Below are positions 1 to 19,385 of a DNA stretch of 20,000 nt, one piece after another. Source of the DNA: an uncultured virus (IMG/VR IMGVR_UViG_3300042402_007133) (Duplodnaviria; Heunggongvirae; Uroviricota; Caudoviricetes); the IMG/VR virus record IMGVR_UViG_3300042402_007133. One strand, given 5' to 3'. The position numbers and the translations under genes were made by a program. The notes below the pieces were generated by a model. That model saw nothing but the letters and a program-made list of their open reading frames with translations. It did not search any database and was not told where the DNA came from. How positions within the stretch are numbered: the stretch's first letter is position 1; each line of letters begins with the position of its first letter.

Positions 1-1
1 C

Positions 2-1072
2 ATGTCCATACGCCAGGACGTGACAAACATAAAGAAAAAAGAAGCAGAATTCAGAAACCGCATGACCGCCATAAACAATTCAAATGCGGTGATCGAATTT
101 GACACAGAAGGTAATATCATCTACGCAAATAACCAGTTTTTAAGTGCAATGGGTTATAAAATGGATGAGGTACAAGGAAAACATCATAGAATTTTTGTAG
201 ACCTAGAGTATGCTGAATCTAAAGAGTACGAAGAATTTTGGGAACAACTACGTAAGGGAAATTATATGTCTGGCGAAGTATCCCGGGTTAAAAAGGACGG
301 CTCTCTTATACAACTTCAATCCACTTACAATCCCATATTCAATACGTCCGGTCAAGTTTATCGCGTGATGAAAATTGCAGTGGATGTCACAGACAGGCTT
401 AACCAAAGAAGAGAGATAGAGAAGAAGAACTCCTACCTTGAACATGCTGCCAAGATACTCAGGCACGATATGCACAGTGGCATCAACACATACATACCAA
501 GAGGCATTAGTTCACTGGAGCGAAGACTCCCGGAGGAAAAGCAGAAGGACCTAAAGGTAGATGCGCCCATAAAGATGATCAAAGAGGGCCTTCGACACAC
601 GCAGAAAGTGTATAAAGGAGTTTATGAGTTTACCAACCTGGTAAAAAAGGATGTTGTGTTAAATAAGACAATGTGCAACCTCTCAACAATACTTGATGAC
701 TATCTTTCTGCTACTGCATACAGACCACAAGTTATAATTTCGGACCTTGGTGAGTCTGAAGTGAATGAGGCACTGTTTTGTACCGCAATTGATAACCTGA
801 TCAGGAACGGTTTGAAGTATAATGACAGTCTGAAAAAAGAGGTGCATATACGAAGAGAAGGAGATCTTCTTTTTGTTGAAGACAATGGAAGAGGAATGAC
901 GCCAGCAGAATTCAAATATCTGTCTCAGCCATACACAAGAAAGGAAGGACAGAATGAATCCGGAACTGGCCTGGGTCTTAACATCTGTGTTGCAATAATT
1001 GAAGAGCACGGGTTTGAACTAAATTGTCAACAAGTTACAACGGGAACAAGGATGGAGATAAAGTTAAAATAA
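2..1072 (+). CDS. PAS-domain sensor histidine kinase (5'-truncated by window edge)
   Basis: Opens with the PAC tail of an upstream PAS domain (SIRQDVT), then a full PAS/PAC domain (AVIEFDTEGNIIYANNQFL...GKHHRIF...KIAVDVT). Kinase motifs: H-box KILRHDMHS, N-box AIDNLIRNGLKY, G1 VEDNGRGM, G2 GTGLGL. The frame is open to the window start. Confidence 0.93.
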   Translation: MSIRQDVTNIKKKEAEFRNRMTAINNSNAVIEFDTEGNIIYANNQFLSAMGYKMDEVQGKHHRIFVDLEYAESKEYEEFWEQLRKGNYMSGEVSRVKKDGSLIQLQSTYNPIFNTSGQVYRVMKIAVDVTDRLNQRREIEKKNSYLEHAAKILRHDMHSGINTYIPRGISSLERRLPEEKQKDLKVDAPIKMIKEGLRHTQKVYKGVYEFTNLVKKDVVLNKTMCNLSTILDDYLSATAYRPQVIISDLGESEVNEALFCTAIDNLIRNGLKYNDSLKKEVHIRREGDLLFVEDNGRGMTPAEFKYLSQPYTRKEGQNESGTGLGLNICVAIIEEHGFELNCQQVTTGTRMEIKLK

Positions 1073-1085
1073 CGCAAACAATAAA

Positions 1086-1517
1086 ATGATCGATTCAATT
1101 TTGCTGGTAGATGATGAAAGCCTCTTTCATCTGGTGTTTGAGGATGCATGCAGCCTCTTAGACGTCTCGTTAACACTAGAATGTCTTAGTAGTTCTGATG
1201 AAGCTGCAAGAATATTCGAAGACCTATACAAGAATAAAAAAAACAGGCCCGAATGTGTGTTTGTTGATCTAAACATCATTGGGTCATCATTTGATGGGAT
1301 TGAACTGATCAGAAAGATAAACTATGAATTTGGAAATGGGATGGTCATAGGGATCATATCATCATCAAATGAGCCAGCAGAACAAGAAAAAGCAAAGAAG
1401 GCAGGTGCGCAGTTTTGGATAATAAAATCTGATGATATTGAACCTAGACTAGAGGCATTCAAGAGTGATTTTGAAAAGTTCAAAGACCGCTCCATGCCGT
1501 TCAAAATTTATTCATGA
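1086..1517 (+). CDS. Single-domain (CheY-like) response regulator receiver
   Basis: Acidic pocket LLVDDE, phospho-acceptor VFVDL, FDGIEL, ISSS, and AGAQFWIIK with the conserved Lys. No output domain. Starts 13 nt after the kinase. Confidence 0.92.
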   Translation: MIDSILLVDDESLFHLVFEDACSLLDVSLTLECLSSSDEAARIFEDLYKNKKNRPECVFVDLNIIGSSFDGIELIRKINYEFGNGMVIGIISSSNEPAEQEKAKKAGAQFWIIKSDDIEPRLEAFKSDFEKFKDRSMPFKIYS

Positions 1518-2116
1518 TGAAAGTTGACAAGGCAATTCGTGATTTTCTCATGAATACACAAAGGGAAAAGAGAGTCGTGCTAGAAGGTAGCATACTCAAG
1601 CTTATTGAAGCTGAGGATGGAGATATTGAATTTTCTGCATATCTTAAAGACGCAATTGAGAAAGATAAATTCACAAGAAAAAGGAGACTTGAGGTCACCA
1701 AACAGGTCCAGGAACAAAACACAGAGCTGCTTAACTGGCAAAAAGAAAACCAGGAGTTGATGGATAATCTAAAAACTGCATTATCAGAAGCAGAATCTTC
1801 AAGAGCTCTTGCAGAAGAATCCAGGCTTGATGCAGAAAAGGCAAAGGATGTTGCACTAAATGATCTCGATGTTCTTCAAAAGCGTTCACAAACTGAATTG
1901 ATAAGCACAATAGTGAAAGTTGCATTGGCAGTCATCATTAGTGTCGGTTTTGTGACAACGGCAATGTATGCAATTGCAATGTGGACAGGAAAGGACACCC
2001 AGATCATTGGTTCTACATGGTCAAATATGTTTGGCATTCTTCTTACGAATGCATTTTCGATTGTTGGGACAATAATGGGCGTAAAATATGCATCAGAAAA
2101 CAATAGCAATCAATAG
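1514..2116 (+). CDS. Hypothetical membrane protein: long coiled coil plus two C-terminal TM helices
   Basis: E/K/Q/L/A heptad-rich middle region; hydrophobic segments IVKVALAVIISVGFVTTAMYAIAMW and MFGILLTNAFSIVGTIMGV; ATGA overlap with the receiver gene stop. Confidence 0.8.
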   Translation: MMKVDKAIRDFLMNTQREKRVVLEGSILKLIEAEDGDIEFSAYLKDAIEKDKFTRKRRLEVTKQVQEQNTELLNWQKENQELMDNLKTALSEAESSRALAEESRLDAEKAKDVALNDLDVLQKRSQTELISTIVKVALAVIISVGFVTTAMYAIAMWTGKDTQIIGSTWSNMFGILLTNAFSIVGTIMGVKYASENNSNQ

Positions 2117-2126
2117 ATATATAGAC
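2116..2126 (+). promoter_or_regulatory. Putative phage late promoter GATATATAGAC
   Basis: Identical 11-mer at 19386-19396 (minus strand), near-identical copies at 9867 and 15166; 15 nt upstream of ATG 2142. Confidence 0.6.
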
Positions 2127-2141
2127 AAAAATACAACCAAA

Positions 2142-2777
2142 ATGGCAAGAGTTTTGAACTTTACTCAGTTCATCAATGAGGCTGAGGATCAAAAGAAGAT
2201 TGAATACATCTATGACAAAGCAGGAAAAGAAGTAGAAAAGGCCATACTTAACCTAGAAGGTTCAGACAGCGCACAGATGACAAAGCTTATGAACAAGTTT
2301 GTTGAGACGTATGAACTTCTTAAGCAGGCACAGGAATCACACGATGAGGTTAAAGACGTCCTTAAGGATAAGATAAATGAATCTTTTACAGAGGAATTGA
2401 AGTTTGTCACAAGGATAATAAATACTGTCAAGTATGCATTCACATTCTCGAAGTATACAAAGGCAAAGGAAGAAACATCTGAAGTTGTTGATTACAAAGC
2501 TGCAATGAATGAGATGATGGAGATCTTCCCAGACATAAAGGATGGTCTGAAGGAGATAATAAAGAAACACACCGAAATAAAGAAGGTAGTAAAGAAGGAA
2601 ATCTCTGGTTCAATAAAGTACACACATGTAACTCTGAACGAGGGACTTTCAGACATTCTAAAGGGCCTAATTACAAAGCTTGAAGGTATTTTTTCATCAC
2701 TCTATCGTTCTCTTAAGACCATCGGCGGAAGGATCGATGATAAGTTTGAAAAGATCGATAGTCTATTAAAGGGTTAA
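2142..2777 (+). CDS. Hypothetical helical phage protein with N-terminal MARVLNFTQFINE peptide (possible virion/head protein)
   Basis: Start moved from 2088 to ATG 2142, which removes the overlap and places it after the promoter motif. FxxFINE N-terminus and an internal TLNE-G site. Confidence 0.75.
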   Translation: MARVLNFTQFINEAEDQKKIEYIYDKAGKEVEKAILNLEGSDSAQMTKLMNKFVETYELLKQAQESHDEVKDVLKDKINESFTEELKFVTRIINTVKYAFTFSKYTKAKEETSEVVDYKAAMNEMMEIFPDIKDGLKEIIKKHTEIKKVVKKEISGSIKYTHVTLNEGLSDILKGLITKLEGIFSSLYRSLKTIGGRIDDKFEKIDSLLKG

Positions 2778-2781
2778 TTTT

Positions 2782-2901
2782 ATGCCATGGACATCACAGC
2801 CAATAACAGTAGATGCTGATGTGATGGAAATTCTACAACAGCTTCCAGAAGAGGCCATAGTTGAATATCTGCAGTCTTTAGGATACGAAGTAAACAAGTA
2901 A
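2782..2901 (+). CDS. Small 39-aa hypothetical protein (MPWTSQPITVDADVMEILQQLPEEAIVEYLQSLGYEVNK)
   Basis: Translated by hand (below the ORF-track cutoff). Fills the gap between stop 2777 and the hairpin at 2907; composition suggests an amphipathic helix. Confidence 0.65.
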   Translation: MPWTSQPITVDADVMEILQQLPEEAIVEYLQSLGYEVNK

Positions 2902-2906
2902 AACCA

Positions 2907-2942
2907 GAAGGCCTTCTCAAAGAGATGGCCTTCATCTATTTT
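2907..2942 (+). terminator. Putative intrinsic terminator
   Basis: GAAGGCC-T-TCTC-AAA-GAGA-T-GGCCTTC stem-loop (2907-2933) followed by ATCTATTTT (imperfect U-tract). Confidence 0.5.
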
Positions 2943-2956
2943 GAAAGAAGAAAGTT

Positions 2957-4120
2957 ATGAGAGAGAAAGAAATACCCCTGTTTAAGGTCTACATGTCACA
3001 GGAGTCCATAGATAGAACAGTAGATGTTCTTAACTCAGGATTCATCGGCCAGGGACCTGTTGTTGATGAATTTGAATCAATGTTGAGAGAGCGATTCTCG
3101 TGGGACTACATCCTGACTGTCAACTCTGCAACTTCAGCAGAACATCTTGCCCTTCACATGTTGAAGGAAGAAGGCAAGACCGTTTTGAATTCAAGCTGGC
3201 CAGGAATACAACCAGGCGATGAGATACTTGCAACGCCGCTTACATGCACTGCATCAAACTGGCCTATACTTGCAAATGGATTCAACATCAAGTGGGTCGA
3301 CATAGATCCAACAACGATGAACATGGACCTTGACGACCTTGCAAGAAAGATTGGCCCAAAGACAAAGGCCATAATGATTGTGCACTGGGGCGGATATCCA
3401 AACGATCTCAACAAGCTCAAACAGATCCAAGAGAAGGCAAAAGAATTGTATGGCTTCAAGCCTGCAATAATTGAGGACTGTGCACATGCAATGGGAAGCA
3501 AGTTCAATGACAGATACATAGGAACTCATGGAAACATCTGCACGTTCAGCCTTCAGGCCATAAAGCACGTAACATCAGGTGATGGCGGTCTTCTCTTCCT
3601 TCCGCACAATGAATTGTACAGAAGAGGAAAGCTCCTTCGTTGGTACGGAATCGATCGAGAGTCAAACAGAAAGGATTTTCGATGTGAGGCCGACATACCA
3701 GAATGGGGATTCAAATTCCACATGAATGACATAAATGCTGCCATAGGAATGGGCAACATGAAGAAGATCGATGAGATAACAGGAAAGCACAAAAGCAATG
3801 CAGCATTCTATGACAGAGAGCTTGCGGGCGTAGCTGGAATCCAGACGTTGAAAAGAGAAAAGGGGCACGATTCTGCATTCTGGATATACAGCATCCTTGT
3901 TGAAAACAAAGATGGATTCCAAAGGTGGATGAAGGAGCGTGGCGTTGCAACAAGCCAAGTCCACGAGAGGAATGACATACACAGCACGGTAAGACAATAC
4001 AAATCAATACTTCCAAATCTAGACAAGACAGTACCAATGTTAAGCTCAATACCTGTGGGTTGGTGGCTGTCCGAAGAGGATAGAGAATGGATAGTTGAAT
4101 CCATAAAGATGGGCTGGTAA
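2957..4120 (+). CDS. DegT/DnrJ/EryC1/StrS-family PLP-dependent nucleotide-sugar aminotransferase
   Basis: NSATSA, KTKAIMIVHWGG, IIEDCAHA, FSLQAIKHVTSGDGG (PLP lysine), GFKFHMNDINAAIG. Confidence 0.95.
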   Translation: MREKEIPLFKVYMSQESIDRTVDVLNSGFIGQGPVVDEFESMLRERFSWDYILTVNSATSAEHLALHMLKEEGKTVLNSSWPGIQPGDEILATPLTCTASNWPILANGFNIKWVDIDPTTMNMDLDDLARKIGPKTKAIMIVHWGGYPNDLNKLKQIQEKAKELYGFKPAIIEDCAHAMGSKFNDRYIGTHGNICTFSLQAIKHVTSGDGGLLFLPHNELYRRGKLLRWYGIDRESNRKDFRCEADIPEWGFKFHMNDINAAIGMGNMKKIDEITGKHKSNAAFYDRELAGVAGIQTLKREKGHDSAFWIYSILVENKDGFQRWMKERGVATSQVHERNDIHSTVRQYKSILPNLDKTVPMLSSIPVGWWLSEEDREWIVESIKMGW

Positions 4121-4121
4121 A

Positions 4122-4718
4122 ATGAAGAATCTTTTAATGTTGCTATTGGCTGTGTTTGCTATACAAACATTGGCTGCACAAAAAAGGGATAGCGTAGTCA
4201 TAGAGAATGACATCTATAAGATAGTGTATTCAGAGGTCCTTGAACAGCCTCTGTACATCAGATACACAGTTCTTTGTCCAGAAGGAACAGCGTCAAGATC
4301 CGGAATGGACTTCTATACAGAAAAGACTGTCCATACATCAGATGGAGAAGACTATGAAAAGAATGTTTGGGACAAGGGACACTGTGCTCCTGCAGCAGAC
4401 TTCAATTGCACAAAAGAGATGCTGTACAAAACATTCTCATATGTAAACTGCATTCTACAACACGAGAAGCTTAATAGAGGCGCATGGAGGTTTCTTGAGG
4501 CCCATGAGAGAGAACTGGCAAAAACAAAAAACACCGTTGTGGAAATAAGGGTTGCATTCTCAAAGAAATCAATGAAGCTTCCAACTGGTGCAACAATTCC
4601 TGACGGTTTCTATAAGATGATATACACAAATGGAAATCTTGTTGAATGCTACTACTTTGACAATGCTATACCACCAGAACCAGACTACAACAGATATAAG
4701 ATGAACTGTAAAAAATAA
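4122..4718 (+). CDS. DNA/RNA non-specific endonuclease (NucA / His-Me family) with signal peptide
   Basis: DKGHCAPAADF (DRGH motif), LNRGAWRFLE, IPDGFYK; N-terminal signal peptide MKNLLMLLLAVFAIQTLAA. Confidence 0.9.
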   Translation: MKNLLMLLLAVFAIQTLAAQKRDSVVIENDIYKIVYSEVLEQPLYIRYTVLCPEGTASRSGMDFYTEKTVHTSDGEDYEKNVWDKGHCAPAADFNCTKEMLYKTFSYVNCILQHEKLNRGAWRFLEAHERELAKTKNTVVEIRVAFSKKSMKLPTGATIPDGFYKMIYTNGNLVECYYFDNAIPPEPDYNRYKMNCKK

Positions 4719-4726
4719 TACTTAAG

Positions 4727-5668
4727 ATGTTAACGAGAGAACAGACAAACCTTCTTGAAAGGATGAAGACTGATTTAGAAAGGGCAAAAAACCCGTTCTA
4801 TAAGCCAAGCGATTTCTTCTGGAAGAGGATAGTTGATGATTTTGAAAGACGCAGATTCAAGAATGAAGGAATTGGAGAGATACAGTCGCAGAGTTACAAT
4901 GCCTTGTTTGCATTCTTATCTGGACACAAGTCTTCTCTAACTGGGCACGATAACATAGACTTTGAAATATGTCTATGGACTTTTTATACGCTGCTAAAAT
5001 CCAGGGACAAACATGGACTGTTGGATAAGACAGAAGCCCTAATAGCAACAGATGGGAGCCTATACCTTGACACGGATCGTGTTGTAGGAAGGCCTAGCCA
5101 TTTAGAAAAGAAGCGCCTAACATGGGACTATCTGTTCTCAATGGATACAATACTTAGAATAGTTGAACAGTATCCAGAGGTATTGACCGAAGAGCTCAGC
5201 ATATGTGAAGTAGGAGCAGGCTGGGGAAGGCTATCCTACTACTTCACCCAAGTCAATAACAAACTGAGATACCACATATTTGACATACCACACGTGCTTC
5301 TCATATCACATGAGTACCTCGCTAGATCGACTAAGCACACAAGGGTGTTTTCTTATGATGAATCAAGCGTGTCAAGCAACGAACCAGGAATAAAGTTCTT
5401 TACATCAAACAAGCTTGAAGATCTTGATGGAAAGACATTTGACCTATTCATAAATCAGGCATCATTTCAAGAGATGACGCTAGAGCAGGTGACTGGCTAT
5501 TTTGAAAGAATAAACGTGCTAAGCAAAAGGTTCTACAGCTTTCAAAGGTATGAGTGTCTAGACATGGAATACAAGAAGTATCCTATTTACCCAAACTGGA
5601 CAAAAACATATGACGCAGACTGCTGCTTTGATCCTCTTTGGTTTGAACAATTCTTTGTAATAAACTAA
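4727..5668 (+). CDS. Putative sugar O-methyltransferase (SAM-dependent, TIGR04371-like)
   Basis: ICEVGAGWGRL, YHIFDIPHVLLIS and FDLFINQASFQEM...VTGYF motifs, recognised from memory of this family. Confidence 0.75.
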   Translation: MLTREQTNLLERMKTDLERAKNPFYKPSDFFWKRIVDDFERRRFKNEGIGEIQSQSYNALFAFLSGHKSSLTGHDNIDFEICLWTFYTLLKSRDKHGLLDKTEALIATDGSLYLDTDRVVGRPSHLEKKRLTWDYLFSMDTILRIVEQYPEVLTEELSICEVGAGWGRLSYYFTQVNNKLRYHIFDIPHVLLISHEYLARSTKHTRVFSYDESSVSSNEPGIKFFTSNKLEDLDGKTFDLFINQASFQEMTLEQVTGYFERINVLSKRFYSFQRYECLDMEYKKYPIYPNWTKTYDADCCFDPLWFEQFFVIN

Positions 5669-5681
5669 TTGATAATCATTT

Positions 5682-6488
5682 GTGATACACTACATCGTTG
5701 CAGTATTTACAGGAAAAAGACAAAATAAAGTAATAAATGCCCGTCTTTCTGATCCAGCATATCTTGTCAAGAAGCACCTGTTTGGGTTGGAAACGCTTAA
5801 ACTTCCAGATGTTGTAAAGGCAACTTTTGTTGTTAGCCCTTCTGACAATGAAGCTAGAGACCAGGAAGTGGTAGAATATGTAAAGAACTATGATAATAAG
5901 ACTAGCATAGAGATCGATGCGTACATAAAAGAAGACAATCTTCTGTTCTCATATGGCTCGTGGAACGATGCAATGGAAAAGAACATAGAGAATGATGAAC
6001 ACTTCTTTTTGATAGAGGATGATTACTTTCCGTGCTCGGATAATTTCTATGAGCCATTTGTTAAGAAGATGGAAGAAACTGATTCTGCATATGTTTGTCA
6101 GCTATGGTCTGATAAGTTTCTTAGCAGGCCATGTGCTGCAATAAGCAATGGATTGATGAGCATAGATGCAGCAAGATTCCACCACAAAAAATTTCGAGAG
6201 TGTCTTAATCTGAGAAAGCTAAAAAATCGTAAAGCCCTTAATCATCAGCAAGGCGTAACTGCTCAGATACACTTCCTAGACGGTTACCAAAAGCTTGCCT
6301 TTCCAATAACAGACATAGCAGAAGAATACGGTCAGCCGTTTCTTTCTCCAGAGAATCGTGTGTTCATGTATGGAAACAGGGTGAAGGGAATAATGATAAA
6401 GTGCGAAAGCTTTGGAGAGGTAAAGACAGAGCCAGCAACTTATCTACGTTATAGTCAAATAAGAATCACAGGATCAGGAGACGAATGA
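5682..6488 (+). CDS. Putative GT-A-fold glycosyltransferase, paralogue 1 of 3
   Basis: GTG start; FSYGSWN, HFFLIEDDYFP (DxD-like), AYVCQLW, AAISNGLM shared with 6485 and 7984. Confidence 0.6.
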   Translation: MIHYIVAVFTGKRQNKVINARLSDPAYLVKKHLFGLETLKLPDVVKATFVVSPSDNEARDQEVVEYVKNYDNKTSIEIDAYIKEDNLLFSYGSWNDAMEKNIENDEHFFLIEDDYFPCSDNFYEPFVKKMEETDSAYVCQLWSDKFLSRPCAAISNGLMSIDAARFHHKKFRECLNLRKLKNRKALNHQQGVTAQIHFLDGYQKLAFPITDIAEEYGQPFLSPENRVFMYGNRVKGIMIKCESFGEVKTEPATYLRYSQIRITGSGDE

Positions 6489-7249
6489 TAAACTATATTG
6501 TAGCATTATACGTTGGCCAAAGAGGAAACGGGGCTGTTAGCTCTCTGACAAAGGACCCAACATACATGGCAAAACGCCATCTTGATCTGTTATCATCCTT
6601 AAGCGTCCCTCTGATTAAAAAGGCAACTTTTGTAATATCTCCATCCTCTTCACATGAAGAAGACTTGCGAGCACTTGAGTTTATTCGAGAAAACAAAGTT
6701 AGTCTTAATGAAATTGAAGTAGATGCATTCATAGGACAGAATAATCACAACCATTCCTATGGATCTTGGAACTTTGCCATGAATAAACACATCAACGATG
6801 GGATGGACTTCTTTTTGATGGAGGACGACTATTTCCCATCAAGGGATGAGTTTTACATGCCATTCATTGAAAAAATGAATGATAGGATAGCATACGTCTC
6901 ACAGCTTTACACGCACACTAGGGAACAGAGAAAGCATGCAGCAATAAGCAACGGTCTTATGAACTATGTTGCAGCAAAGAAGCACCATGAAGAATTTGGA
7001 AACTCTATATCAATAGAAATTCCTAATAAAAAGCCATATGATGTGGGTGTTTACACCCAACTAAATTTTCTAAAGGGCTATGAAGGTATAGGGTACCGTA
7101 TGGATGATGTTTCAGAAAAGTATTGTCATCCATTTTTACAGAGAAGCAACAAAATAACAATATACGGAAATGTAAAGGGTGAAACTCTGATAGAACCAGT
7201 CTTCTATGAGGATAGGATAAGAAGCACCTATAAAGTTTTATCAATGTAA
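6485..7249 (+). CDS. Putative GT-A-fold glycosyltransferase, paralogue 2 of 3
   Basis: HSYGSWN, FFLMEDDYFP, AYVSQLY, AAISNGLM; ATGA overlap with paralogue 1. Confidence 0.6.
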   Translation: MINYIVALYVGQRGNGAVSSLTKDPTYMAKRHLDLLSSLSVPLIKKATFVISPSSSHEEDLRALEFIRENKVSLNEIEVDAFIGQNNHNHSYGSWNFAMNKHINDGMDFFLMEDDYFPSRDEFYMPFIEKMNDRIAYVSQLYTHTREQRKHAAISNGLMNYVAAKKHHEEFGNSISIEIPNKKPYDVGVYTQLNFLKGYEGIGYRMDDVSEKYCHPFLQRSNKITIYGNVKGETLIEPVFYEDRIRSTYKVLSM

Positions 7250-7265
7250 CCGTCAACTTTAAGAT

Positions 7266-7976
7266 ATGAAATTCTTGATACTACTATTTTACTATGAGAG
7301 GCCTGAACTTCTTAAAAATGCACTCTCAACTGTAAAGTCCTCAACATATAAGAATTGGGATCTATGTGTGATAGATGATGGAACAAAATTTCCAGCATTC
7401 AATGTCATAAATGAATGTTTCTCATCAGATGAACGAATGTCACACAAGATAACATACATTCAAACTTTTGATAGTGAGGAAAGGAAGAAGACCAGAGGAG
7501 GAAGCCAGTTTGGAGAGTATGCAAACTCAGCAATAAAGACAAGCGATGCAGACATCGTGTTAATGCTTTGTGATGACGATCTGCTAAAACCAGATTACAT
7601 GGAACTGCTGAATGAATTCTACATCAACAACCCAGATGTTAAGTATTCGTATGCACACCTGGACTTCTATGATCCTACAATAGGTCTTCCTAGTGAAAGC
7701 AATATGGTTAGCGATGGATACACAAAGTATCTTGTGAGAAACACACACCCAATAAATCCTGTAAGAAGGCTTGACTCATCACAGGTTAGCTGGAGAAGAA
7801 GGAACTGTTTGGATGATGGGATACTTTTTCCGTGTCCAAGGACATCTAACCTAGATGAAGTGATCTATGGACACATGTATGTTGCATGGGGAGAATGTGT
7901 ATTCAACGGAATAAATGGTCAATGGAAGGGAATACATGAAGGCCAACTAATAAACCTTGCAAGAAAAGATAGGTAA
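7266..7976 (+). CDS. Glycosyltransferase family 2
   Basis: YYERPELLKNALSTV, TYKNWDLCVIDDG, ANSAI...DIVLMLCDDDLL: typical GT2 N-terminal domain. Confidence 0.85.
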   Translation: MKFLILLFYYERPELLKNALSTVKSSTYKNWDLCVIDDGTKFPAFNVINECFSSDERMSHKITYIQTFDSEERKKTRGGSQFGEYANSAIKTSDADIVLMLCDDDLLKPDYMELLNEFYINNPDVKYSYAHLDFYDPTIGLPSESNMVSDGYTKYLVRNTHPINPVRRLDSSQVSWRRRNCLDDGILFPCPRTSNLDEVIYGHMYVAWGECVFNGINGQWKGIHEGQLINLARKDR

Positions 7977-7983
7977 AATAATA

Positions 7984-8805
7984 ATGGTAAATTACATAGT
8001 TGCTCTATACCTTGGAAAGAGAAGGAATGGCATGGTCCAGGATTGCATGGACAAGGATCCGTTCTATCTCCTGAAGTCACACATGCTTGCGATACACAAG
8101 TATAAAATGGATGGAATCCATAAGGTGACATTTGTCCTTAACCCGTCAGAAAATAAAGAGGCAGAGGATGCACTAGATTCTGTTTTTCAGGAATACAAGT
8201 CACTCTGTTCAAAGAAGGAAATAGAAATTGAGCTCATTAAAAACCCAGATAACAAGCACATATCATACGGTGCATGGAACTATGGTGTGATGAATGGGCT
8301 ATCAGACGAGAGGACAAAACACTTCTTCTTGTTGGAGGATGACTATGTCCCCTGTTCGGACAACTTCCATCTACCCTATATTGATAGAACGGGCCCGGAC
8401 ATAGCATATGTTTGCCAGCTTTGGACTCCATCATCTCCACAGCCAAAGTCCATACATTCTGGCCGTGTTGCAATAACCAATGGGCTTTTGAATGCAGACA
8501 TATCAAAAAAGGTGTTTGAGAAGTATGGAAGATGTTTCATGTTGGATGTAACAGGAGACTATGGGCATCTATCAAAATCAAAGACATTGGACGATGTATC
8601 AAAGAAGTACATCCTTTCTGGTCCTGCACAGAAGTTTTTTGTTAGACTATACCAAGATGAAAACTACAGGATCGTAGATCTTGGTCCTGGGTGGCAACAG
8701 CTGTTCTTAAATTCTAGAACTATAAAAACATATGGAGAAGGAAACCCTGCAACTCTTTATCCAATAAATGAATATGTTCCAATAACACCGGAGTCATTTT
8801 TATGA
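7984..8805 (+). CDS. Putative GT-A-fold glycosyltransferase, paralogue 3 of 3
   Basis: Start moved to ATG 7984 (MVNYIVALYLG aligns with the paralogue N-termini); ISYGAWN, HFFLLEDDYVP, AYVCQLW, VAITNGLL. Confidence 0.6.
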   Translation: MVNYIVALYLGKRRNGMVQDCMDKDPFYLLKSHMLAIHKYKMDGIHKVTFVLNPSENKEAEDALDSVFQEYKSLCSKKEIEIELIKNPDNKHISYGAWNYGVMNGLSDERTKHFFLLEDDYVPCSDNFHLPYIDRTGPDIAYVCQLWTPSSPQPKSIHSGRVAITNGLLNADISKKVFEKYGRCFMLDVTGDYGHLSKSKTLDDVSKKYILSGPAQKFFVRLYQDENYRIVDLGPGWQQLFLNSRTIKTYGEGNPATLYPINEYVPITPESFL

Positions 8806-9461
8806 TGAACATAAAGCTAAGACTGATTGATTACACAGATATCTCAACCATAAACAGGATACGAAATCAATCAGCGTCATACTTACATGATGATAGAACG
8901 TTCACCGAAGAGGAGACTCATGAATGGTGGCTACGATATGACCTAGATTGGTATGCAATAGTTCTAGATGGAGAAATGATAGGATACTTCAGAATATCAA
9001 ACTACTCCAAGGAAAACCGAAACCTCTACATAGGAGCAGACCTAGCTGAGGAGCATAGAGGAAAGGGGATTGGGTATGCTGCATATCTGATGATGATGGA
9101 GATGTTGTTCAACCAAAGAAAGCTTAACAAGATAACGCTTGAAGTCCTAAGCACAAATGAAAGGGCATATGGCCTCTACAGAAAGCTTGGATTCTCCGTT
9201 GAAGGGACAAAAAGACAGGAGGTATGGAGGGATGGAAGATGGGCAGATTCAATTGTGATGTCAATCACAAGGAAAGAATTCATGTCGCTGAACCCACAAT
9301 CTGTTGCATCTCCTTGCATAGGGATATGTCAAAGAGACGGAGACATATGCCTTAGCTGTGGAAGAACCATGGATCAGATAAGATCATGGAAGGATTTAAG
9401 CCCTGGGCAGAGGGCAGATGCAATAAATGAAATGATACAAATCAATGTAACAAAGCCATAA
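8802..9461 (+). CDS. GNAT N-acetyltransferase (PseH/RimJ-like) fused to a C-terminal DUF1289-like Cys4 domain
   Basis: HRGKGIG acetyl-CoA motif and LEVLSTNERAYGLYRKLGFSVEG; C-terminal SPCIGIC...ICLSCGRTMDQIRSW...R. Confidence 0.85.
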   Translation: MMNIKLRLIDYTDISTINRIRNQSASYLHDDRTFTEEETHEWWLRYDLDWYAIVLDGEMIGYFRISNYSKENRNLYIGADLAEEHRGKGIGYAAYLMMMEMLFNQRKLNKITLEVLSTNERAYGLYRKLGFSVEGTKRQEVWRDGRWADSIVMSITRKEFMSLNPQSVASPCIGICQRDGDICLSCGRTMDQIRSWKDLSPGQRADAINEMIQINVTKP

Positions 9462-9503
9462 CTGTTGGCATATAACAAGAACAATAACCAAAAGGAAATA
9501 CTG

Positions 9504-9767
9504 ATGATTTTGGACATTAACCAAAACAATCCCGCTGAACAGGCGCCCCAGATGTCAAGGGAACAAATGATGAATGCAATTAGAGATGCATTTGCAACCC
9601 ATGCAACAGATCTTGCATGTGAAAAATGCAGCAATGATACATTCAATGAAGTGGTCAAGATAAAGAGGTTGAGCGCAATTGCATCTCCAACTGGAGAAGA
9701 GATGGTCCTTCCATTTAAGGTTTTCATCTGTTCAAAGTGCTCAGAGCCTATACCAGATATGAAATAA
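9504..9767 (+). CDS. Small zinc-ribbon hypothetical protein
   Basis: CEKC...CSKC pairs. ATG 9504, preceded by AAGGA, is preferred over TTG 9465. Confidence 0.75.
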   Translation: MILDINQNNPAEQAPQMSREQMMNAIRDAFATHATDLACEKCSNDTFNEVVKIKRLSAIASPTGEEMVLPFKVFICSKCSEPIPDMK

Positions 9768-9783
9768 ATTTTTTCTAGTTCTA

Positions 9784-9836
9784 GGGACCGTTTAATTTTG
9801 TGCCATTGCAAGAAATTGACGGTCCCATTTTTATTT
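9784..9836 (+). terminator. Intrinsic terminator
   Basis: GGGACCGT (9784-9791) pairs with ACGGTCCC (9819-9826), with an extended imperfect inner stem, followed by ATTTTTATTT. Confidence 0.7.
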
Positions 9837-9866
9837 CAGAATCAATAACAAAGCTAGACCTAAGGT

Positions 9867-9878
9867 GATATATAGAAC
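9867..9878 (+). promoter_or_regulatory. Putative phage late promoter GATATATAGAAC
   Basis: Copy of the recurrent motif, after the terminator and abutting ATG 9879. Confidence 0.55.
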
Positions 9879-10259
9879 ATGTTAAATTCAGATAAAAATT
9901 TTGAAGCCATGAACATTACTTTGACGATAGCAAGAGTTGCATTTGTAACAGCTGCAGCATTCATCAACCCATGGCTGGTTATTCCTGCTTTCATAATAGC
10001 AGAATTGGTATCGACAAAATTCCAAAACAAGCCAGCGGTTGAGCAACCAAAGGCAGACACAATATTGAACGCAACAGAAGCTTCAGCAGAAGCAATTCAA
10101 CCATTAACACAAGAGCTGGTCATTGAGAAGGTTGAAGAAGTAAAGGCCGAAGAAGAGCCTAAAAAGAAGAGCAGGAAGAAAAGATCATCTAAGCTCTCTG
10201 ATAACAGCAGCAACCAGCAGGTAAAGACGTCAAAGCCAAAGGGTAGGCGCAGCAACTAA
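9879..10259 (+). CDS. Hypothetical membrane-anchored protein with acidic linker and K/R/S-rich tail
   Basis: Hydrophobic ARVAFVTAAAFINPWLVIPAFIIAELV segment; tail KKKSRKKRSSK...KPKGRRSN; alternative start at 9909. Confidence 0.7.
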   Translation: MLNSDKNFEAMNITLTIARVAFVTAAAFINPWLVIPAFIIAELVSTKFQNKPAVEQPKADTILNATEASAEAIQPLTQELVIEKVEEVKAEEEPKKKSRKKRSSKLSDNSSNQQVKTSKPKGRRSN

Positions 10260-10273
10260 AATTAAATAACCAA

Positions 10274-10347
10274 GTCGTTTAATCGTCGAGCGACCGGAAT
10301 CTGGAATCTTCGGATTCCTTAGTATCACAAAATATTAAGGAGGAACT
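10274..10347 (+). promoter_or_regulatory. Structured 5' leader with alternative hairpins and strong SD (AAGGAGG)
   Basis: Stems: 10274-10294; GGAATC-TTCG-GATTCC at 10303-10318; and 10315-10325 pairing with 10332-10342 over the SD. Confidence 0.55.
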
Positions 10348-10830
10348 ATGAATTTTCAAAGATACGGCCTAGCTTTAGCTACGCTTTTTCTTGTTTTGAT
10401 AACAAACATATACGCATTTGACATAGATGTTGAAAGCGTAATGAATACTGCTTTTATGGATTCAATAATACATGTTGAAAGCAGTGGGCGTGATAATGCT
10501 GTATCCCGAGATGGATCTGCTGGACCTTTGCAGATCAAAGCAGTATTGGTCAAAGATGTCAATAGAATACTTGCGCACAGAGGAGATACTCTGAGGTTCA
10601 GGATGAAAGACAGGTTTGACAGGGATAAAGCCATACAGATGTTCTGGATATACCAGAGCTTCTATGGAAAGCAAGGCGACAGCTTTGAGACCATGGCAAG
10701 AAGGTGGAACGGAGGCCCAAATGGACCATCCAAAAAGGCCACAAGAAAGTACTGGAAGAAGGTAAACAAGCAATTGATGCTAAGGGTCAGCAATGACATG
10801 GCAACATCCCAATCAAGGACAAACCTATAA
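10348..10830 (+). CDS. Lysozyme-like / lytic transglycosylase (SLT-type) with signal peptide; candidate endolysin
   Basis: IIHVESSG (catalytic Glu), AGPLQI (GxxQ motif), ARRWNGG; hydrophobic N-terminal leader ending IYA. Confidence 0.8.
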   Translation: MNFQRYGLALATLFLVLITNIYAFDIDVESVMNTAFMDSIIHVESSGRDNAVSRDGSAGPLQIKAVLVKDVNRILAHRGDTLRFRMKDRFDRDKAIQMFWIYQSFYGKQGDSFETMARRWNGGPNGPSKKATRKYWKKVNKQLMLRVSNDMATSQSRTNL

Positions 10831-11408
10831 TGTTGAAGAGCAGGCTTGCAATAGAAGGGCTTGAAATAATCAAGCCAACAAACCACAGCGATGAACGTGG
10901 ATTCTTTTCTGAGATATGGAAGGATGAATCAGGTTTTCCAGAATTCAAGCAGATGAATATGTCTGTAAGCAAGCTCTGTACATTCAGAGGGCTTCACTAT
11001 CAATGGGATAGGCCACAGGGAAAGATGATACGTGTGGTAAAAGGAAGCGCAATATTCTTTGAACTAGATGTCAGAAGTTACAGTCCAACCTTTGGTGAGC
11101 ATGAGGTAATTCCATTGAATGGAAAGACGAATGAATGGCTGTGGGTTCCTGCTGGGTTTGCAAATGGTTTCTTCACTCTTGAAGAAGACACACACGTAAT
11201 GTACATGTGCACAGAAAAGTGGAGCAAGTGCGAAGGGTCAATAAATCACAACATCCTTGGATACGATTTTAATATGCTTGGAAGCATAAGAAACATATCA
11301 GAGAAGGATTCCAATGCACCATCGTTTGATGAATCAATAGCACACTTGGAATCAATATCAGATTTTTTCCGCAATGACAGTAAAGGCGTTATAGAGATCA
11401 ACGCCTGA
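10830..11408 (+). CDS. rmlC: dTDP-4-dehydrorhamnose 3,5-epimerase
   Basis: DERGFF, RGLHYQ, QGKMIRV, LWVPAGFANGF, SEKDSNAP; TAATG overlap with the upstream gene. Confidence 0.92.
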   Translation: MLKSRLAIEGLEIIKPTNHSDERGFFSEIWKDESGFPEFKQMNMSVSKLCTFRGLHYQWDRPQGKMIRVVKGSAIFFELDVRSYSPTFGEHEVIPLNGKTNEWLWVPAGFANGFFTLEEDTHVMYMCTEKWSKCEGSINHNILGYDFNMLGSIRNISEKDSNAPSFDESIAHLESISDFFRNDSKGVIEINA

Positions 11409-11852
11409 GACGAATATCTTGTTGAAACTCTTCGTTGATTTTAGATAATCCCTTAGGATGTTTGGAGTAAACATATGTACATGTTTACGATTGTTCCATG
11501 GCCTCCAGTATTCCTGTGAATAGTCAGGAAGATACAAGAACAGAATGCCACCCGGCTTTAATTTATCTGTCCAATATTCCAGTGCCCCTACCCAGTCTGG
11601 TATGTGTTCAAGGCAATGAGAAGAGAACACATAATCCATGTTGGTATATGGAAAGTCTGTTGCGTGGTATTGGTTTATCTCGGGATCTACTGGATAAGAT
11701 CCAGGAAACTTCCATTCCATTCTGTTGCAGCCAACATCAACACCATCACCTTTGCAAACCTCTAGAGCAAATGGCATAACAAACCTTGCCGCAAAGCCAT
11801 TCGTTTGGAATGCAGGATATTCGGCTTCATTGAACTTAACAGTTTCTAACAT
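11358..11852 (-). CDS. Class I SAM-dependent methyltransferase (type 11-like)
   Basis: GVDVGC, YVFSSHCLEH, LKPGGILFLYLPD. Confidence 0.85.
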   Translation of the reverse strand: MLETVKFNEAEYPAFQTNGFAARFVMPFALEVCKGDGVDVGCNRMEWKFPGSYPVDPEINQYHATDFPYTNMDYVFSSHCLEHIPDWVGALEYWTDKLKPGGILFLYLPDYSQEYWRPWNNRKHVHMFTPNILRDYLKSTKSFNKIFVSGVDLYNAFTVIAEKI

Positions 11853-11867
11853 AACATCGTAGTTTGA

Positions 11868-11881
11868 TCCTTATATAAGGA
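11868..11881. promoter_or_regulatory. 14-bp perfect palindrome TCCTTATATAAGGA in a 33-nt divergent intergenic gap
   Basis: Read directly; has a TATATA core and supplies AAGGA on both strands. Confidence 0.4.
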
Positions 11882-11885
11882 GGAT

Positions 11886-12482
11886 ATGGTAAATGTTTAC
11901 ACAGTTCTTAACGTATCCTTCAACCACACGAAGGAATACGTCTATCGGCTAAAGAGGTCGTTAGAAAAGAACTCCACTGTTTCCTTCAATTTCTTCTGTT
12001 TAACCAATGAACAGCTTCCAGGAATAAACACGATCCCGGTTAGTGAGGAAGGAAAATGGGCAAAGATAGAACTGTGCAAGTCATCCATAAAGGGAAGAAT
12101 CCATTACATGGACATAGACACCGTTCTTGTGGGAAACGTCGATTTCTTTCTTAACGCGCAAGCATCATTCTTCTGTAGAACATGGGTAGGTCAAAGAAGA
12201 ACCAATGTGATGTCATTGGACGAAGAAGAAAGAGCTGCAGTCTGGGACTTCTGGACGTTTTCAAGGAACAGGATAATACCAAACTTGAAGGGCGAAGGGG
12301 CTGTCTATGACTTTGTTTCAAACGTAACAACACCATGCATACAGGACATTCATCCTGGAAAGGTTGTTAGCCTACAGGAAGCAGAGCCTTGCATTCCTCT
12401 TGGTTGCAAGATGGTTACATTTTCAAATGGAAAATTTCCAAAGAACCTTGATGATGAAAATTGGATGAAAAAATACTGGTAA
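11886..12482 (+). CDS. Putative glycosyltransferase (GT-A, GT8-like phage type)
   Basis: YVYRLKRSLEKN...FFCLTN, WAKIEL, YMDIDTV (DxD), FSNGKFP. Confidence 0.7.
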   Translation: MVNVYTVLNVSFNHTKEYVYRLKRSLEKNSTVSFNFFCLTNEQLPGINTIPVSEEGKWAKIELCKSSIKGRIHYMDIDTVLVGNVDFFLNAQASFFCRTWVGQRRTNVMSLDEEERAAVWDFWTFSRNRIIPNLKGEGAVYDFVSNVTTPCIQDIHPGKVVSLQEAEPCIPLGCKMVTFSNGKFPKNLDDENWMKKYW

Positions 12483-12488
12483 ACTACT

Positions 12489-15161: not shown

Positions 15162-15165
15162 ACAG

Positions 15166-15177
15166 AATATATAGACC
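15166..15177 (+). promoter_or_regulatory. Putative phage late promoter AATATATAGACC
   Basis: Copy of the recurrent motif in a 16-nt intergenic gap, abutting ATG 15178. Confidence 0.55.
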
Positions 15178-15894: not shown

Positions 15895-15910
15895 AGATAA
15901 AACCACACAA

Positions 15911-16666: not shown

Positions 16667-16690
16667 CAGATCACGTTAAAAGCGTGTATT

Positions 16691-18245: not shown

Positions 18246-18256
18246 AAATCTGTTCC

Positions 18257-19371: not shown

Positions 19372-19385
19372 GACGTTATTTATTG

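What the first reader, a model, noticed from the sequence alone, without database searches (positions are those of the whole stretch)
2..2116. Apparently phage-borne two-component cassette: multi-PAS kinase, bare receiver and coupled membrane coiled-coil protein
Seen: a kinase with at least two PAS/PAC units and an atypical H-box (RHDMHSGIN, lacking the usual Pro), a receiver with no output domain, and a third gene overlapping it by ATGA that encodes a long coiled coil plus two TM helices. Known: complete kinase-regulator pairs are uncommon in phage genomes, and single-domain receivers act by protein-protein contact. Inference: a three-gene signalling module in which the membrane protein is the receiver's target or scaffold. 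It could let the virus sense redox, oxygen or energy state and time lysis or rewire host signalling.
Basis: partly seen in the sequence, partly recalled or inferred. Interest (0 to 1): 0.78.

Follow-up and report, generated by a model that had tools for sequence, protein, structure and literature searches.

The report
Phage sensor relay to membrane hairpin
An uncultured freshwater phage carries its own sensor kinase, phospho-receiver and a virus-only two-helix membrane protein, a trio that hundreds of large phages keep together and mostly place among their cell-bursting genes, so it probably lets the phage set lysis by the state of the infected cell, though nothing has been tested at the bench.

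Summary
Window 2-2116 encodes a PAS histidine kinase cut off at its 5' end by the window edge, a 143-aa receiver with no output domain, and a 200-aa protein with a small N-module, one long helix and two C-terminal TM helices. The last two genes overlap by ATGA.

The trio is syntenic in viral contigs: kinase in 73, receiver in 78, third gene in 80 of 80 loci. Five of five long relatives carry a T4-type capsid gene. The family is phage-only on what I searched.

The hairpin's second TM helix is invariant in 34 of 34 sequences although synonymous sites are saturated. In another large phage group the same coil and hairpin is fused directly to PAS-PAS, and there is no receiver: 0 of 80 loci, 0 of 5 contigs. 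GAF and single-PAS fusions also occur as database proteins whose context I could not see.

Cell-wall hydrolase or holin genes lie within 5 genes in 47 of 80 cassette loci, and within 3 genes in 71 of 80 fused-form loci.

Best reading (about 0.55): a sensor-gated lysis-timing module with the hairpin as holin-like effector or holin regulator. Receiver-hairpin binding has only weak model support (0.34 against 0.00).

My searches found it in no paper. The scan has noted the same cassette before on other DNA.

The parts
2..1072 (+). Sensor histidine kinase, C-terminal 356 aa (5' end cut by the window). Tail of an upstream PAS (res 1-17), complete PAS (res 29-131), DHp with H-box, HATPase_c (res 259-356).
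   Evidence: Pfam PAS_3/PAS_9/HATPase_c. PDB 3ewk alignment of res 2-100 and 33-118. 68-71% identical to 523-709-aa kinases in viral loci.
461..487 (+). H-box RHDMHSGIN. The presumed phospho-accepting His is the H of RHD.
   Evidence: Read from the sequence. Conserved at >= 90% in 52 distinct kinase tails. No Pfam HisKA hit.
1086..1517 (+). Single-domain receiver (143 aa). Acidic pocket D9/D10, phospho-acceptor D61 (nt 1266-1268), S92-94, K114, and a ~25-aa C-terminal tail.
   Evidence: Pfam Response_reg only. Alignment A2: mean column identity 82%, catalytic residues invariant in 34 of 34. One copy per phage genome in 5 of 5.
1514..1517 (+). ATGA start/stop overlap of the receiver and the third gene (translational coupling).
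   Evidence: ORF coordinates and sequence. Overlap in 42 of 76 related loci.
1514..2116 (+). Membrane hairpin protein (200 aa): N-module (res 1-~72, including the conserved RRKRLEVTKQVQxQN stretch), variable long helix, TM1 (~res 129-152), short loop, TM2 (~res 166-193), short charged tail.
   Evidence: AF2 model, pLDDT 84. Hydropathy. Alignment A1. No Pfam or PHROG family. 5848 relatives in metagenomes. 252 viral contigs.
2009..2092 (+). TM2 block (..IIGSTWSNMFGILLTNAFSIVGTIMGVKYA): almost invariant at the protein level.
   Evidence: Within the block TWSNMFGILLTNAFSIVGTIMGVKYA, 24 of 26 positions are identical in 34 of 34 sequences, while their codons use all synonymous alternatives.
2088..2777 (+). 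229-aa ORF of no known family, directly downstream on the same strand. It overlaps the hairpin gene by 29 nt if the first ATG is used. Possibly co-transcribed, and not conserved with the cassette.
   Evidence: ORF list. No tblastn hit in 80 related loci. No significant Pfam or PHROG family.

Best explanation
This is a phage-encoded signalling cassette whose output is a membrane hairpin protein that belongs to the phage lysis module.

Shown or directly read:
- The kinase is intact by sequence and has a cytoplasmic PAS sensor (GAF/PAS in relatives).
- The receiver is intact and has no output domain.
- A virus-only protein (N-module, long helix, two TM helices) is translationally coupled to the receiver.
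- The three genes stay together across hundreds of large aquatic phages, while the kinase's sensor end varies freely and the receiver and TM2 are nearly frozen.

Inferred mechanism:
- The kinase reads an intracellular cue. The PAS nearest the kinase core resembles flavin-binding redox PAS domains.
- It phosphorylates the receiver on D61.
- The phospho-receiver docks on the hairpin protein's cytoplasmic N-module.
- The long helix passes the change to the TM hairpin, which alters its oligomerisation or its hold on a partner in the inner membrane.
- This sets the moment of membrane permeabilisation and endolysin release. The hairpin acts either as a gated holin or as a holin regulator (antiholin).
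- Phages with the fused PAS/GAF-coil-hairpin form do the same in one protein, without the phosphorelay.
For: Synteny. The third gene has 252 relatives in viral contigs, of which 80 were kept. In those 80, tblastn finds the kinase in 73, the receiver in 78 and the third gene in 80. All misses except L024 are at contig edges. Gene junctions overlap or are <= 8 nt in 72 of 76 loci.

Phage origin. Gp23 was found in 5 of 5 long contigs. Atlas clusters are 'Viruses 100%'. There is one MAG hit only, with a virion gene beside the cassette.

Intact parts. H, N, G1 and G2 boxes are conserved in 52 kinase tails. Receiver catalytic residues are invariant.

Variable input, constant output. Among 28 kinases the sensors are GAF-PAS-PAS in 3, GAF-PAS in 1, PAS-PAS in 8, PAS in 10 and none recognised in 6. 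Five loci have two tandem kinases. TM2 is invariant despite saturated synonymous sites.

Domain swaps.
- P0167/P0169/P0151 are PAS(-PAS)+coil+hairpin, and P0143 is GAF+coil+hairpin.
- The PAS-PAS form occurs in 253 viral contigs. There is no receiver in 0 of 80 of those loci and 0 of 5 whole contigs. The positive control gave 5 of 5.
- The N-module plus coil is also found fused to a HisKA/HATPase core (P0242, P0262).

Lysis context.
- Cassette loci have a Pfam-recognisable hydrolase or holin within 1, 3 or 5 genes in 13, 39 and 47 of 80. Adding a PHROG endolysin-like cluster gives 49 of 80, and 21 of 28 distinct flank contexts.
- Fused-form loci have one within 1, 2 or 3 genes in 34, 58 and 71 of 80.
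- The neighbouring enzymes belong to different families: GH19+PG_binding_1, Peptidase_M15_3, Amidase_2, Phage_lysozyme, Glucosaminidase. Phage_holin_4_1 and Phage_holin_10 also occur.
- In G001 and G002 the only above-cut-off PG_binding_1 and M15_3 genes of 430-kb and 294-kb genomes flank the cassette.

Complex model. Receiver plus hairpin residues 1-130 scores 0.34 against a best control of 0.00: 'weak support'. That mark was reached by 116 of 157 solved complexes and 2 of 215 mismatches, but scores of 0.60 or under came from only 18 of those 157 and from both mismatches. The runs agree in 100% of contacts, and partner pLDDT is >= 85.
Against: In this window no lysis gene is adjacent. Downstream is an ORFan and then a ~17-kb sugar-nucleotide and glycosyltransferase island, and upstream is cut off.

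33 of 80 cassette loci show no recognisable hydrolase or holin in the DNA held. In the complete 252-kb genome G003 the PG_binding_1 enzyme lies about 120 kb from the cassette.

Many loci also carry a Pfam holin, so the hairpin need not be the holin.

At 190-226 aa with a 130-aa cytoplasmic domain and an invariant TM helix, it is unlike known holins, which are small and diverse (recalled). It matches no holin family.

L024 keeps the hairpin gene without kinase or receiver.

The loci are related phages, so the counts are not independent events.

The complex score is weak. No phosphotransfer, binding, pore or lysis assay exists.
Confidence: 0.55

Rival explanations
1. The cassette is a host-takeover device unrelated to lysis. 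The hairpin inserts in the inner membrane and binds a highly conserved host membrane machine (respiration, transport, division or motility). The phosphorelay switches this on or off according to host state.
For: The extreme invariance of TM2 under saturated synonymous change is what binding to a conserved partner would give. 33 of 80 loci and the complete genome G003 have no hydrolase near the cassette. This window has sugar genes rather than lysis genes beside it.
Against: Hydrolase or holin genes lie within 3 genes in 71 of 80 fused-form loci and within 5 genes in 47 of 80 cassette loci, with enzyme families changing between lineages. No host partner is known. The fold search found nothing.
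Confidence: 0.2
2. The receiver acts elsewhere, on a host target or as a phosphate sink. The third gene is merely a co-transcribed lysis or membrane gene with no contact to the receiver.
For: The complex prediction is only weak (0.34 against 0.00). L024 keeps the hairpin without kinase and receiver. Single-domain receivers have many kinds of target (recalled).
Against: The stop and start overlap or lie <= 8 nt apart in 72 of 76 loci. The N-module form always comes with a receiver, and the PAS-fused form never does: 0 of 80 loci, 0 of 5 contigs, with a control of 5 of 5. Sensors homologous to the kinase's PAS (52% identity) are fused directly to the hairpin.
Confidence: 0.12
3. The hairpin is a regulated superinfection-exclusion or membrane-immunity protein (in the manner of T4 Imm/Sp), not a lysis protein.
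For: It is an inner-membrane protein of T4-like phages. Control by signals would make sense for exclusion.
Against: The position among endolysin, holin and spanin-like genes is not what is known for exclusion genes (recalled). No similarity to any known family was found.
Confidence: 0.08
4. The window is a piece of a bacterial chromosome and the cassette is an ordinary cellular two-component system.
For: The window's other genes (DegT, RmlA, RmlC, epimerases, glycosyltransferases, GMP-reductase-like) look like a cellular polysaccharide locus, and no phage hallmark gene lies within the 20 kb.
Against: No whole genome is held for the window. The three proteins are 59-84% identical to genes on Gp23-bearing phage contigs of up to 430 kb. 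There is 1 hit in 185,579 species genomes, and that contig is phage-like. Atlas clusters are Viruses 100%. Relatives also carry sugar genes next to the cassette (L008).
Confidence: 0.03

Closest known systems
Phage T4 lysis inhibition: holin T with antiholins RI and RIII (PMC11413866, abstract read; PMC8385771, search listing)
   Same: A T4-type phage adjusts the time of lysis in response to a signal, through a protein that acts on a membrane lysis protein. RIII acts from the cytoplasm.
   Different: T4 senses superinfection through a periplasmic antiholin. There is no kinase, receiver, PAS or GAF. Holin T has one TM helix and a large periplasmic domain, whereas here there is a cytoplasmic N-module, a long helix and a two-TM hairpin. 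I did not test homology to T, RI or RIII.
LytSR two-component system with LrgAB/CidAB holin-like proteins of staphylococci and Bacillus (PMC5675857, PMC8805020, PMC2996381: search listing and abstract starts only)
   Same: A two-component system is tied to holin-like membrane proteins and murein hydrolase activity.
   Different: LytSR is cellular and acts by transcription through a DNA-binding regulator. Here the receiver has no output domain, the system is phage-borne, and control is presumably by protein contact. The hairpin is not an LrgA/CidA family member (no Pfam hit).
Single-domain response-regulator pathways (CheA-CheY-FliM; recalled, not tested)
   Same: A soluble kinase phosphorylates a receiver-only protein that acts by binding the N-terminal part of a target at the membrane.
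   Different: There is no CheA-type kinase (the kinase here is a DHp/HATPase_c class kinase with PAS), no chemoreceptor, no motor. The target is a virus-only hairpin protein.
Class II holins and pinholins such as phage 21 S68 (recalled; PMC9025707 and PMC7312051 seen in search listing only)
   Same: Two TM helices, with both ends presumably cytoplasmic. Small-residue (G/S/T) spacing on the second helix. A position beside endolysin genes.
   Different: About 130 extra cytoplasmic residues. TM2 is invariant across divergent phages. There is no match to any holin family. Other candidate holins are present in many loci.
Phage-borne sensing genes, e.g. agr genes of a Clostridium difficile myovirus (PMC4124054, abstract start only)
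   Same: A phage carries bacterial-type signalling genes, including a histidine kinase.
   Different: That case is a borrowed quorum-sensing set. Here there is a complete kinase-receiver pair with its own phage-only output, conserved across hundreds of phages.

Membership tests
Two-component system: class I (DHp + HATPase_c) histidine kinase | Catalytic ATP-binding domain with N, G1 and G2 boxes | tested here: met
   Pfam HATPase_c 9.5e-15, above the cut-off. DNLIRNGLKYNDS, DNGRG and GxGLGLNI are conserved in 52 tails.
Two-component system: class I (DHp + HATPase_c) histidine kinase | Recognisable HisKA/DHp domain with a phospho-accepting His | tested here: inconclusive
   No Pfam HisKA hit at E <= 0.01, and none at 1e-5 in 28 relatives. 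A conserved RHDMHSGIN lies at the expected distance upstream of HATPase_c, and PDB kinases (HK853, EnvZ) align across residues 132-343.
Two-component system: class I (DHp + HATPase_c) histidine kinase | Autophosphorylation and phosphotransfer to the receiver | not testable with these tools
   Needs an in vitro assay.
Response regulator receiver (CheY-like, single domain) | Receiver fold with acidic pocket, phospho-acceptor Asp, conserved Ser/Thr and Lys | tested here: met
   Pfam Response_reg 2.3e-08, 34.6 bits against a cut-off of 30.2. D9, D10, D61, S92-94 and K114 are invariant in 34 of 34.
Response regulator receiver (CheY-like, single domain) | No output domain; acts by binding a target | tested here: inconclusive
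   Absence of an output domain is met (143 aa, one domain). Binding to the hairpin N-part has weak support only: 0.34 against a best control of 0.00.
Holin (class II / pinholin-like) | Small membrane protein with two TM helices and a charged C-terminal tail | tested here: inconclusive
   Two TM helices and a short charged tail are present. But the protein is 190-226 aa with a ~130-aa cytoplasmic extension.
Holin (class II / pinholin-like) | Membership of a described holin family | tested here: not met
   No Pfam or PHROG holin hit, even at E <= 10 for the C-terminal 86 aa. Fold searches found only its own family.
Holin (class II / pinholin-like) | Gene beside the endolysin | tested here: inconclusive
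   Met in relatives: 47 of 80 within 5 genes, and 71 of 80 within 3 genes for the fused form. Not met in this window, nor in 33 of 80 loci or in G003.
Holin (class II / pinholin-like) | Forms holes that release endolysin at a set time | not testable with these tools
   Needs a lysis-cassette complementation or membrane-depolarisation assay.
T4-like (Gp23 capsid) phages | T4-type major capsid protein in the genome | tested here: inconclusive
   Met in 5 of 5 long contigs carrying the cassette, with gp25 and gp20 nearby in some loci. The window's own contig beyond these 20 kb could not be read.

The most novel reading that the evidence does not exclude
The hairpin protein founds a new class of signal-gated lysis effector. 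Its invariant TM hairpin is a membrane-permeabilising (or holin-blocking) switch. That switch is set from the cytoplasm either by a fused PAS/GAF sensor or, through a phage-owned kinase-to-receiver phosphorelay, by several sensors at once. Large aquatic phages would then decide when to burst the host from its redox or energy state. Such a lysis clock driven by phosphorylation signalling is not described for any phage.
Probability: 0.4. Interest if true: 0.88.

Novelty: new variant of a known kind. Interest (0 to 1): 0.75.

Why it matters
Lysis timing sets burst size and fitness for every lytic phage. In the studied models it is fixed by holin accumulation, or altered only by superinfection (T4 lysis inhibition; PMC11413866, abstract).

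A phage-owned sensor kinase, receiver and membrane effector would mean that abundant lake and ocean phages read the physiological state of the infected cell and act on it. The set is kept in at least 252 viral contigs, plus 253 with the fused form, and in 5848 protein clusters. That bears on models of viral lysis in aquatic carbon cycling.

It would also give a compact, natural sensor-to-membrane switch with exchangeable inputs (PAS, GAF, receiver). The invariant TM helix points to a very constrained membrane interaction that is worth solving.

The idea is directly testable with three small genes.

Tried and rejected
Window's own genome or contig. No genome is held. An exact 36-base pattern from the window found nothing in IMG/VR. 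The kinase N-terminus and the upstream genes of this phage therefore stay unseen.

Kinase as a query for related viral loci by peptide patterns: 8 stretches, none confirmed. The third gene worked instead.

GenBank phages. tblastn with the receiver and the third protein found no match in 50,697 records. blastn of window 1-8000 hit only an aminotransferase gene of four Flavobacterium phage records at 66% identity. No cultured carrier was found.

NCLDV capsid family: 0 of 5 contigs, but the control rang nowhere, so this is uninformative.

Fold searches of the hairpin model. PDB gave nothing at E <= 0.001. BFVD gave only one family member, an uncharacterised protein of an uncultured Caudovirales phage.

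Pfam at E <= 10 on the N-module and on the C-terminal 86 aa: nothing meaningful. The Atlas name 'GLE1-like' is automatic and I disregard it.

A resemblance I recalled between the GT(I/V)xG stretch of TM2 and the MotA/ExbB/TolQ helices was not borne out by any Pfam hit, so I dropped it.

Context of the N-module+kinase fusion P0242: no viral-contig relative. The metagenome scan returned only distant kinase cores.

P0198 (N-part + FecCD) is seen once, on a 1.5-kb contig, and may be a chimera.

T4 late-promoter word TATAAATA: 0 in the window against 0.98 expected. No tRNA. The promoter and terminator scan of 1-3200 gave nothing above the shuffles.

Sequencing runs: no RNA holder is listed for window 1-3000. 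I did not lay reads.

Complex prediction: weak support only.

Literature. Four searches found no paper describing a phage kinase-receiver pair tied to a holin or lysis cassette. The terms were: phage-encoded / histidine kinase / response regulator / jumbo phage; holin / PAS domain / phage / histidine kinase; two-component / lysis timing / endolysin; virus-encoded / T4-like / response regulator. The jumbo-phage survey PMC7824862 (passages read) mentions only a divergent receiver domain that is not in kinase systems. The library lacks most subscription journals, so absence from print is not proven.
Full report
WHAT IS IN THE WINDOW

Three same-strand genes fill 2-2116.

Gene 1 (2..1072) is read from the first bases of the window, so it is the C-terminal 356 aa of a longer protein. 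Pfam finds one complete PAS (residues 29-131) and HATPase_c (259-356), and no HisKA at E <= 0.01. Residues 1-17 align to the end of the first PAS of PDB 3ewk, and residues 33-118 align to that PAS itself. So the window holds one whole PAS and the tail of another. The stated H-box RHDMHSGIN lies at nt 461-487.

Gene 2 (1086..1517) is a 143-aa receiver with no other domain.

Gene 3 (1514..2116) starts inside the receiver's stop (ATGA at 1514-1517). It has no Pfam or PHROG family. AlphaFold2 on a 34-sequence alignment (mean pLDDT 84) gives a small N-terminal module, one helix from 38 to 158, a four-residue turn, and a helix 163-198. Hydropathy places TM segments at 129-147 and 172-190.

THE TRIO IS A CONSERVED PHAGE MODULE

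The third protein has 252 confirmed relatives in IMG/VR contigs, and the best 80 were kept. In those 80 loci tblastn (E <= 1e-5) finds the kinase in 73, the receiver in 78 and the third gene in 80. The window's other 26 proteins hit 0-4 loci each. Every missing kinase or receiver is at a contig edge except in L024, which has 3.1 kb upstream and neither gene.

The order kinase-receiver-hairpin is constant. The receiver stop and hairpin start overlap in 42 of 76 loci and lie within 8 nt in 72 of 76. Five loci (L016, L070, L072, L076, L078) carry two tandem kinases ahead of one receiver.

Five long contigs with the cassette (186-430 kb, one with terminal repeats, CheckV 68-100%) all have a T4-type Gp23 capsid gene. 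Each has exactly one receiver of this kind, and the cassette kinase is the only kinase-like HATPase_c beside it. gp25 and gp20 homologues lie near some cassettes.

Other searches agree that the family is phage-only:
- Among 185,579 species genomes there is one hit, a 21-kb MAG contig. It has the whole trio and a PHROG virion structural protein (4.7e-82) next to it.
- Atlas clusters of the family are 'Viruses 100%'.
- No GenBank phage has the receiver or the hairpin protein, so the lineage is uncultured.
- The family has 5848 clusters at 90% identity at E <= 0.001 and 245 representatives at 50% identity.

The window's first 3 kb is held by 19 lake or freshwater DNA runs from 15 studies, 5 of which may be its source.

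VARIABLE INPUT, FROZEN OUTPUT

Among 28 kinases scanned, the sensors are GAF-PAS-PAS in 3, GAF-PAS in 1, PAS-PAS in 8, PAS in 10, and none recognised in 6. Four of those six are the second kinases of the tandem pairs. My crude hydropathy scan also gives two N-terminal TM segments in some kinases.

By contrast the kinase core motifs are kept at >= 90% in 52 distinct tails. The receiver has 82% mean column identity, with D9, D10, D61, S92-94 and K114 invariant.

The hairpin's TM2 block TWSNMFGILLTNAFSIVGTIMGVKYA is nearly frozen. 24 of its 26 positions are identical in 34 of 34 sequences, even though the N-halves of those sequences are only 45-74% identical. The codons at these positions use every synonymous alternative, including both serine codon families. 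That is protein-level selection, not a DNA element. Nothing so far explains why one TM helix is so constrained.

DOMAIN SWAPS TIE THE SENSORS TO THE HAIRPIN

The profile search found proteins in which the same coil and hairpin follows other input domains:
- two PAS domains (P0167, 371 aa);
- one PAS (P0169, P0151);
- a GAF domain (P0143, 360 aa; 7 cluster members on several contigs).

The PAS-PAS form occurs in 253 viral contigs, of which 80 were kept. Its PAS is 52% identical to the window kinase's PAS. None of the 80 loci has a receiver, and the only kinase-like hit in each locus is the fused gene itself. Five long contigs of this group have no receiver by the A2 profile, and the same profile finds one in 5 of 5 cassette genomes.

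So the N-module form comes with a kinase and receiver, and the sensor-fused form comes without. This is the strongest evidence that the hairpin is the pathway's output and that its N-module is the receiver-dependent input.

The N-module plus the first part of the helix (with the conserved RRKRLEVTKQVQxQN stretch) is also found fused to a HisKA/HATPase core (P0242, P0262; 4 cluster members). That marks it as a portable signalling input. I could not recover the context of those fusions.

The complex prediction of receiver with hairpin residues 1-130 gave 'weak support'. The median score was 0.34 and the best of 3 controls was 0.00. The mark was reached by 116 of 157 solved complexes and 2 of 215 mismatches, but scores of 0.60 or under came from only 18 of those 157 and from both mismatches. 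The runs agree in 100% of contacts, and partner pLDDT is >= 85.

THE LYSIS CONNECTION

In L011 (a 294-kb contig) the cassette lies between a PG_binding_1+GH19 enzyme and a Peptidase_M15_3 enzyme.

Clustering the neighbours of all 80 loci and scanning representatives showed several families beside the cassette: GH19+PG_binding_1, M15_3, Amidase_2+PG_binding_1, Phage_lysozyme, Glucosaminidase, Phage_holin_4_1 and Phage_holin_10. There are also small one- or two-TM proteins and a lipoprotein-like 83-aa protein.

A Pfam-recognisable hydrolase or holin lies within 1, 2, 3 or 5 genes in 13, 28, 39 and 47 of 80 loci, and 33 of 80 show none in the DNA held. Adding a cluster that matches a PHROG endolysin (1.8e-11) gives 49 of 80, and 21 of 28 distinct flank contexts.

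For the fused form the figures are 34, 58 and 71 of 80 within 1, 2 and 3 genes, with 9 of 80 showing none. The same small two-TM protein families recur beside both forms.

Genome-wide, the only above-cut-off PG_binding_1 and M15_3 genes of G001 (430 kb) and G002 (294 kb) flank the cassette. In G004 the PG_binding_1 enzyme is about 1.2 kb away.

Against this, in the complete G003 (252 kb) that enzyme lies about 120 kb from the cassette. The large marine group to which G003 belongs has the cassette next to unknown genes and gp25 instead.

The loci are related phages, so these counts are not independent events. The change of enzyme family between lineages argues for a kept functional association, but I ran no formal null.

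THIS WINDOW'S OWN CONTEXT

Downstream of the trio come three things:
- a 229-aa ORFan (2088..2777);
- a hairpin followed by T's at about 2907-2945, read and not called by the scan;
- a long island of sugar-nucleotide and glycosyl-transfer genes.

The nearest lysis-like genes are weak candidates 8 kb downstream. One is a 126-aa protein with an N-terminal TM segment and a charged tail (9879..10259). The other is a 160-aa protein with a signal-anchor-like N-terminus and a sub-threshold SLT hit (10348..10830). A relative of the latter lies about 1.9 kb from the cassette in L013.

The upstream side is cut off and could not be retrieved.

MECHANISM, AND HOW SURE

Shown by sequence: intact kinase and receiver, translational coupling, conserved synteny, phage origin, sensor-hairpin fusions, and frequent lysis-gene neighbourhood.

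Inferred:
- An intracellular cue is sensed. The best PDB match of the PAS is the FAD-binding PAS of 3ewk at 1.3e-14, with NifL, Aer and LOV domains behind it. This is a lead only; I checked no cofactor residues.
- The kinase phosphorylates D61.
- The receiver docks on the N-module.
- The long helix transmits the change.
- The hairpin changes membrane permeability or holin activity.

I put 0.55 on the lysis-timing reading and about 0.8 on the narrower claim that the hairpin is the output of the phage's own signalling pathway. Whether it is a holin or a holin regulator is open. Some loci (for example L004) show no other membrane protein beside the endolysin, while others carry Pfam holins as well.

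COMPARISON AND NOVELTY

The system works like T4 lysis inhibition in purpose (PMC11413866, abstract). It resembles LytSR-LrgAB in linking a two-component system to holin-like proteins (abstract starts). It resembles CheY pathways in using a receiver-only protein (recalled). It is a member of none of these.

Four literature searches found no description, and the library is incomplete.

The scan's own notes show that the same cassette and the fused form were found before on at least ten other genomes, with the same reading. These are AI notes, read after my analysis, and are not independent evidence. They gave me the T4 paper.

Noticed in passing
window 2957-19998: A long island of sugar-nucleotide and glycosylation genes: DegT aminotransferase, GT2 and other glycosyltransferases, a GNAT+DUF1289 fusion, RmlC, RmlA, three NAD epimerase/dehydratases and a methyltransferase. 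It is mixed with a non-specific endonuclease (4122-4718), a GMP-reductase/IMPDH-like gene (14097-15161), an ankyrin-repeat protein (15178-15894) and several ORFans. It looks like a phage-borne surface-glycan modification set.
   Followed up: partly
window 9879-10259 and 10348-10830: A 126-aa protein with an N-terminal TM segment and a long charged tail, followed by a 160-aa protein with a signal-anchor-like N-terminus and a sub-threshold SLT/transglycosylase match. This may be the window's own lysis pair, 8 kb from the cassette. A relative of the second lies about 1.9 kb from the cassette in L013.
   Followed up: partly
window 2907-2945: Inverted repeat GAAGGCC..(13 nt)..GGCCTTC followed by a T-rich run, after a 39-codon ORF (2782-2901). 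It is a likely end of the transcription unit that holds the cassette. The terminator scan did not list it because the loop is longer than 8 nt.
   Followed up: no
L016:8132-9580, L070:8164-9555, L072:7768-9129, L076:8243-9580: Second, tandem kinases (445-482 aa) ahead of the same receiver have about 350 N-terminal residues with no Pfam domain: an unknown sensor type.
   Followed up: partly
L024:1-3806: A relative of L026 keeps the hairpin gene but has neither kinase nor receiver upstream. This natural deletion variant suggests that the hairpin can work without the relay.
   Followed up: partly
L123 and L146 (contigs G009, G010): Two complete terminal-repeat genomes of 123 and 120 kb carry the PAS-PAS-hairpin fusion but give no Gp23 hit, so the hairpin family has spread beyond T4-type phages.
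   Followed up: partly
P0242, P0262: The hairpin protein's N-module and first helix are fused to a HisKA/HATPase_c kinase core in place of the TM hairpin. Their genomic context was not recovered.
   Followed up: partly
L089:10190-12439: A 749-aa TonB-dependent-receptor-like gene (Plug + OMP_b-brl_3) on a viral contig, three genes from the fused hairpin gene. The type is common in Bacteroidota (recalled), which hints at the host.
   Followed up: no
L014:7104-7409; L078:14542-15417; L026:1-516; L093:6757-7857: Cellular-type genes on these phage contigs near the cassette: SmpB, a sigma-70 family factor, a NADH dehydrogenase subunit fragment and polyphosphate kinase 2.
   Followed up: no
L085:4672-4971 and L099:9082-9516 (clusters 36' and 37'): A 99-aa protein with an N-terminal TM segment and a coiled tail, and a 144-aa protein with a lipoprotein-like signal (..LIAGC). 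They flank the fused hairpin gene like an i-spanin/o-spanin pair.
   Followed up: no
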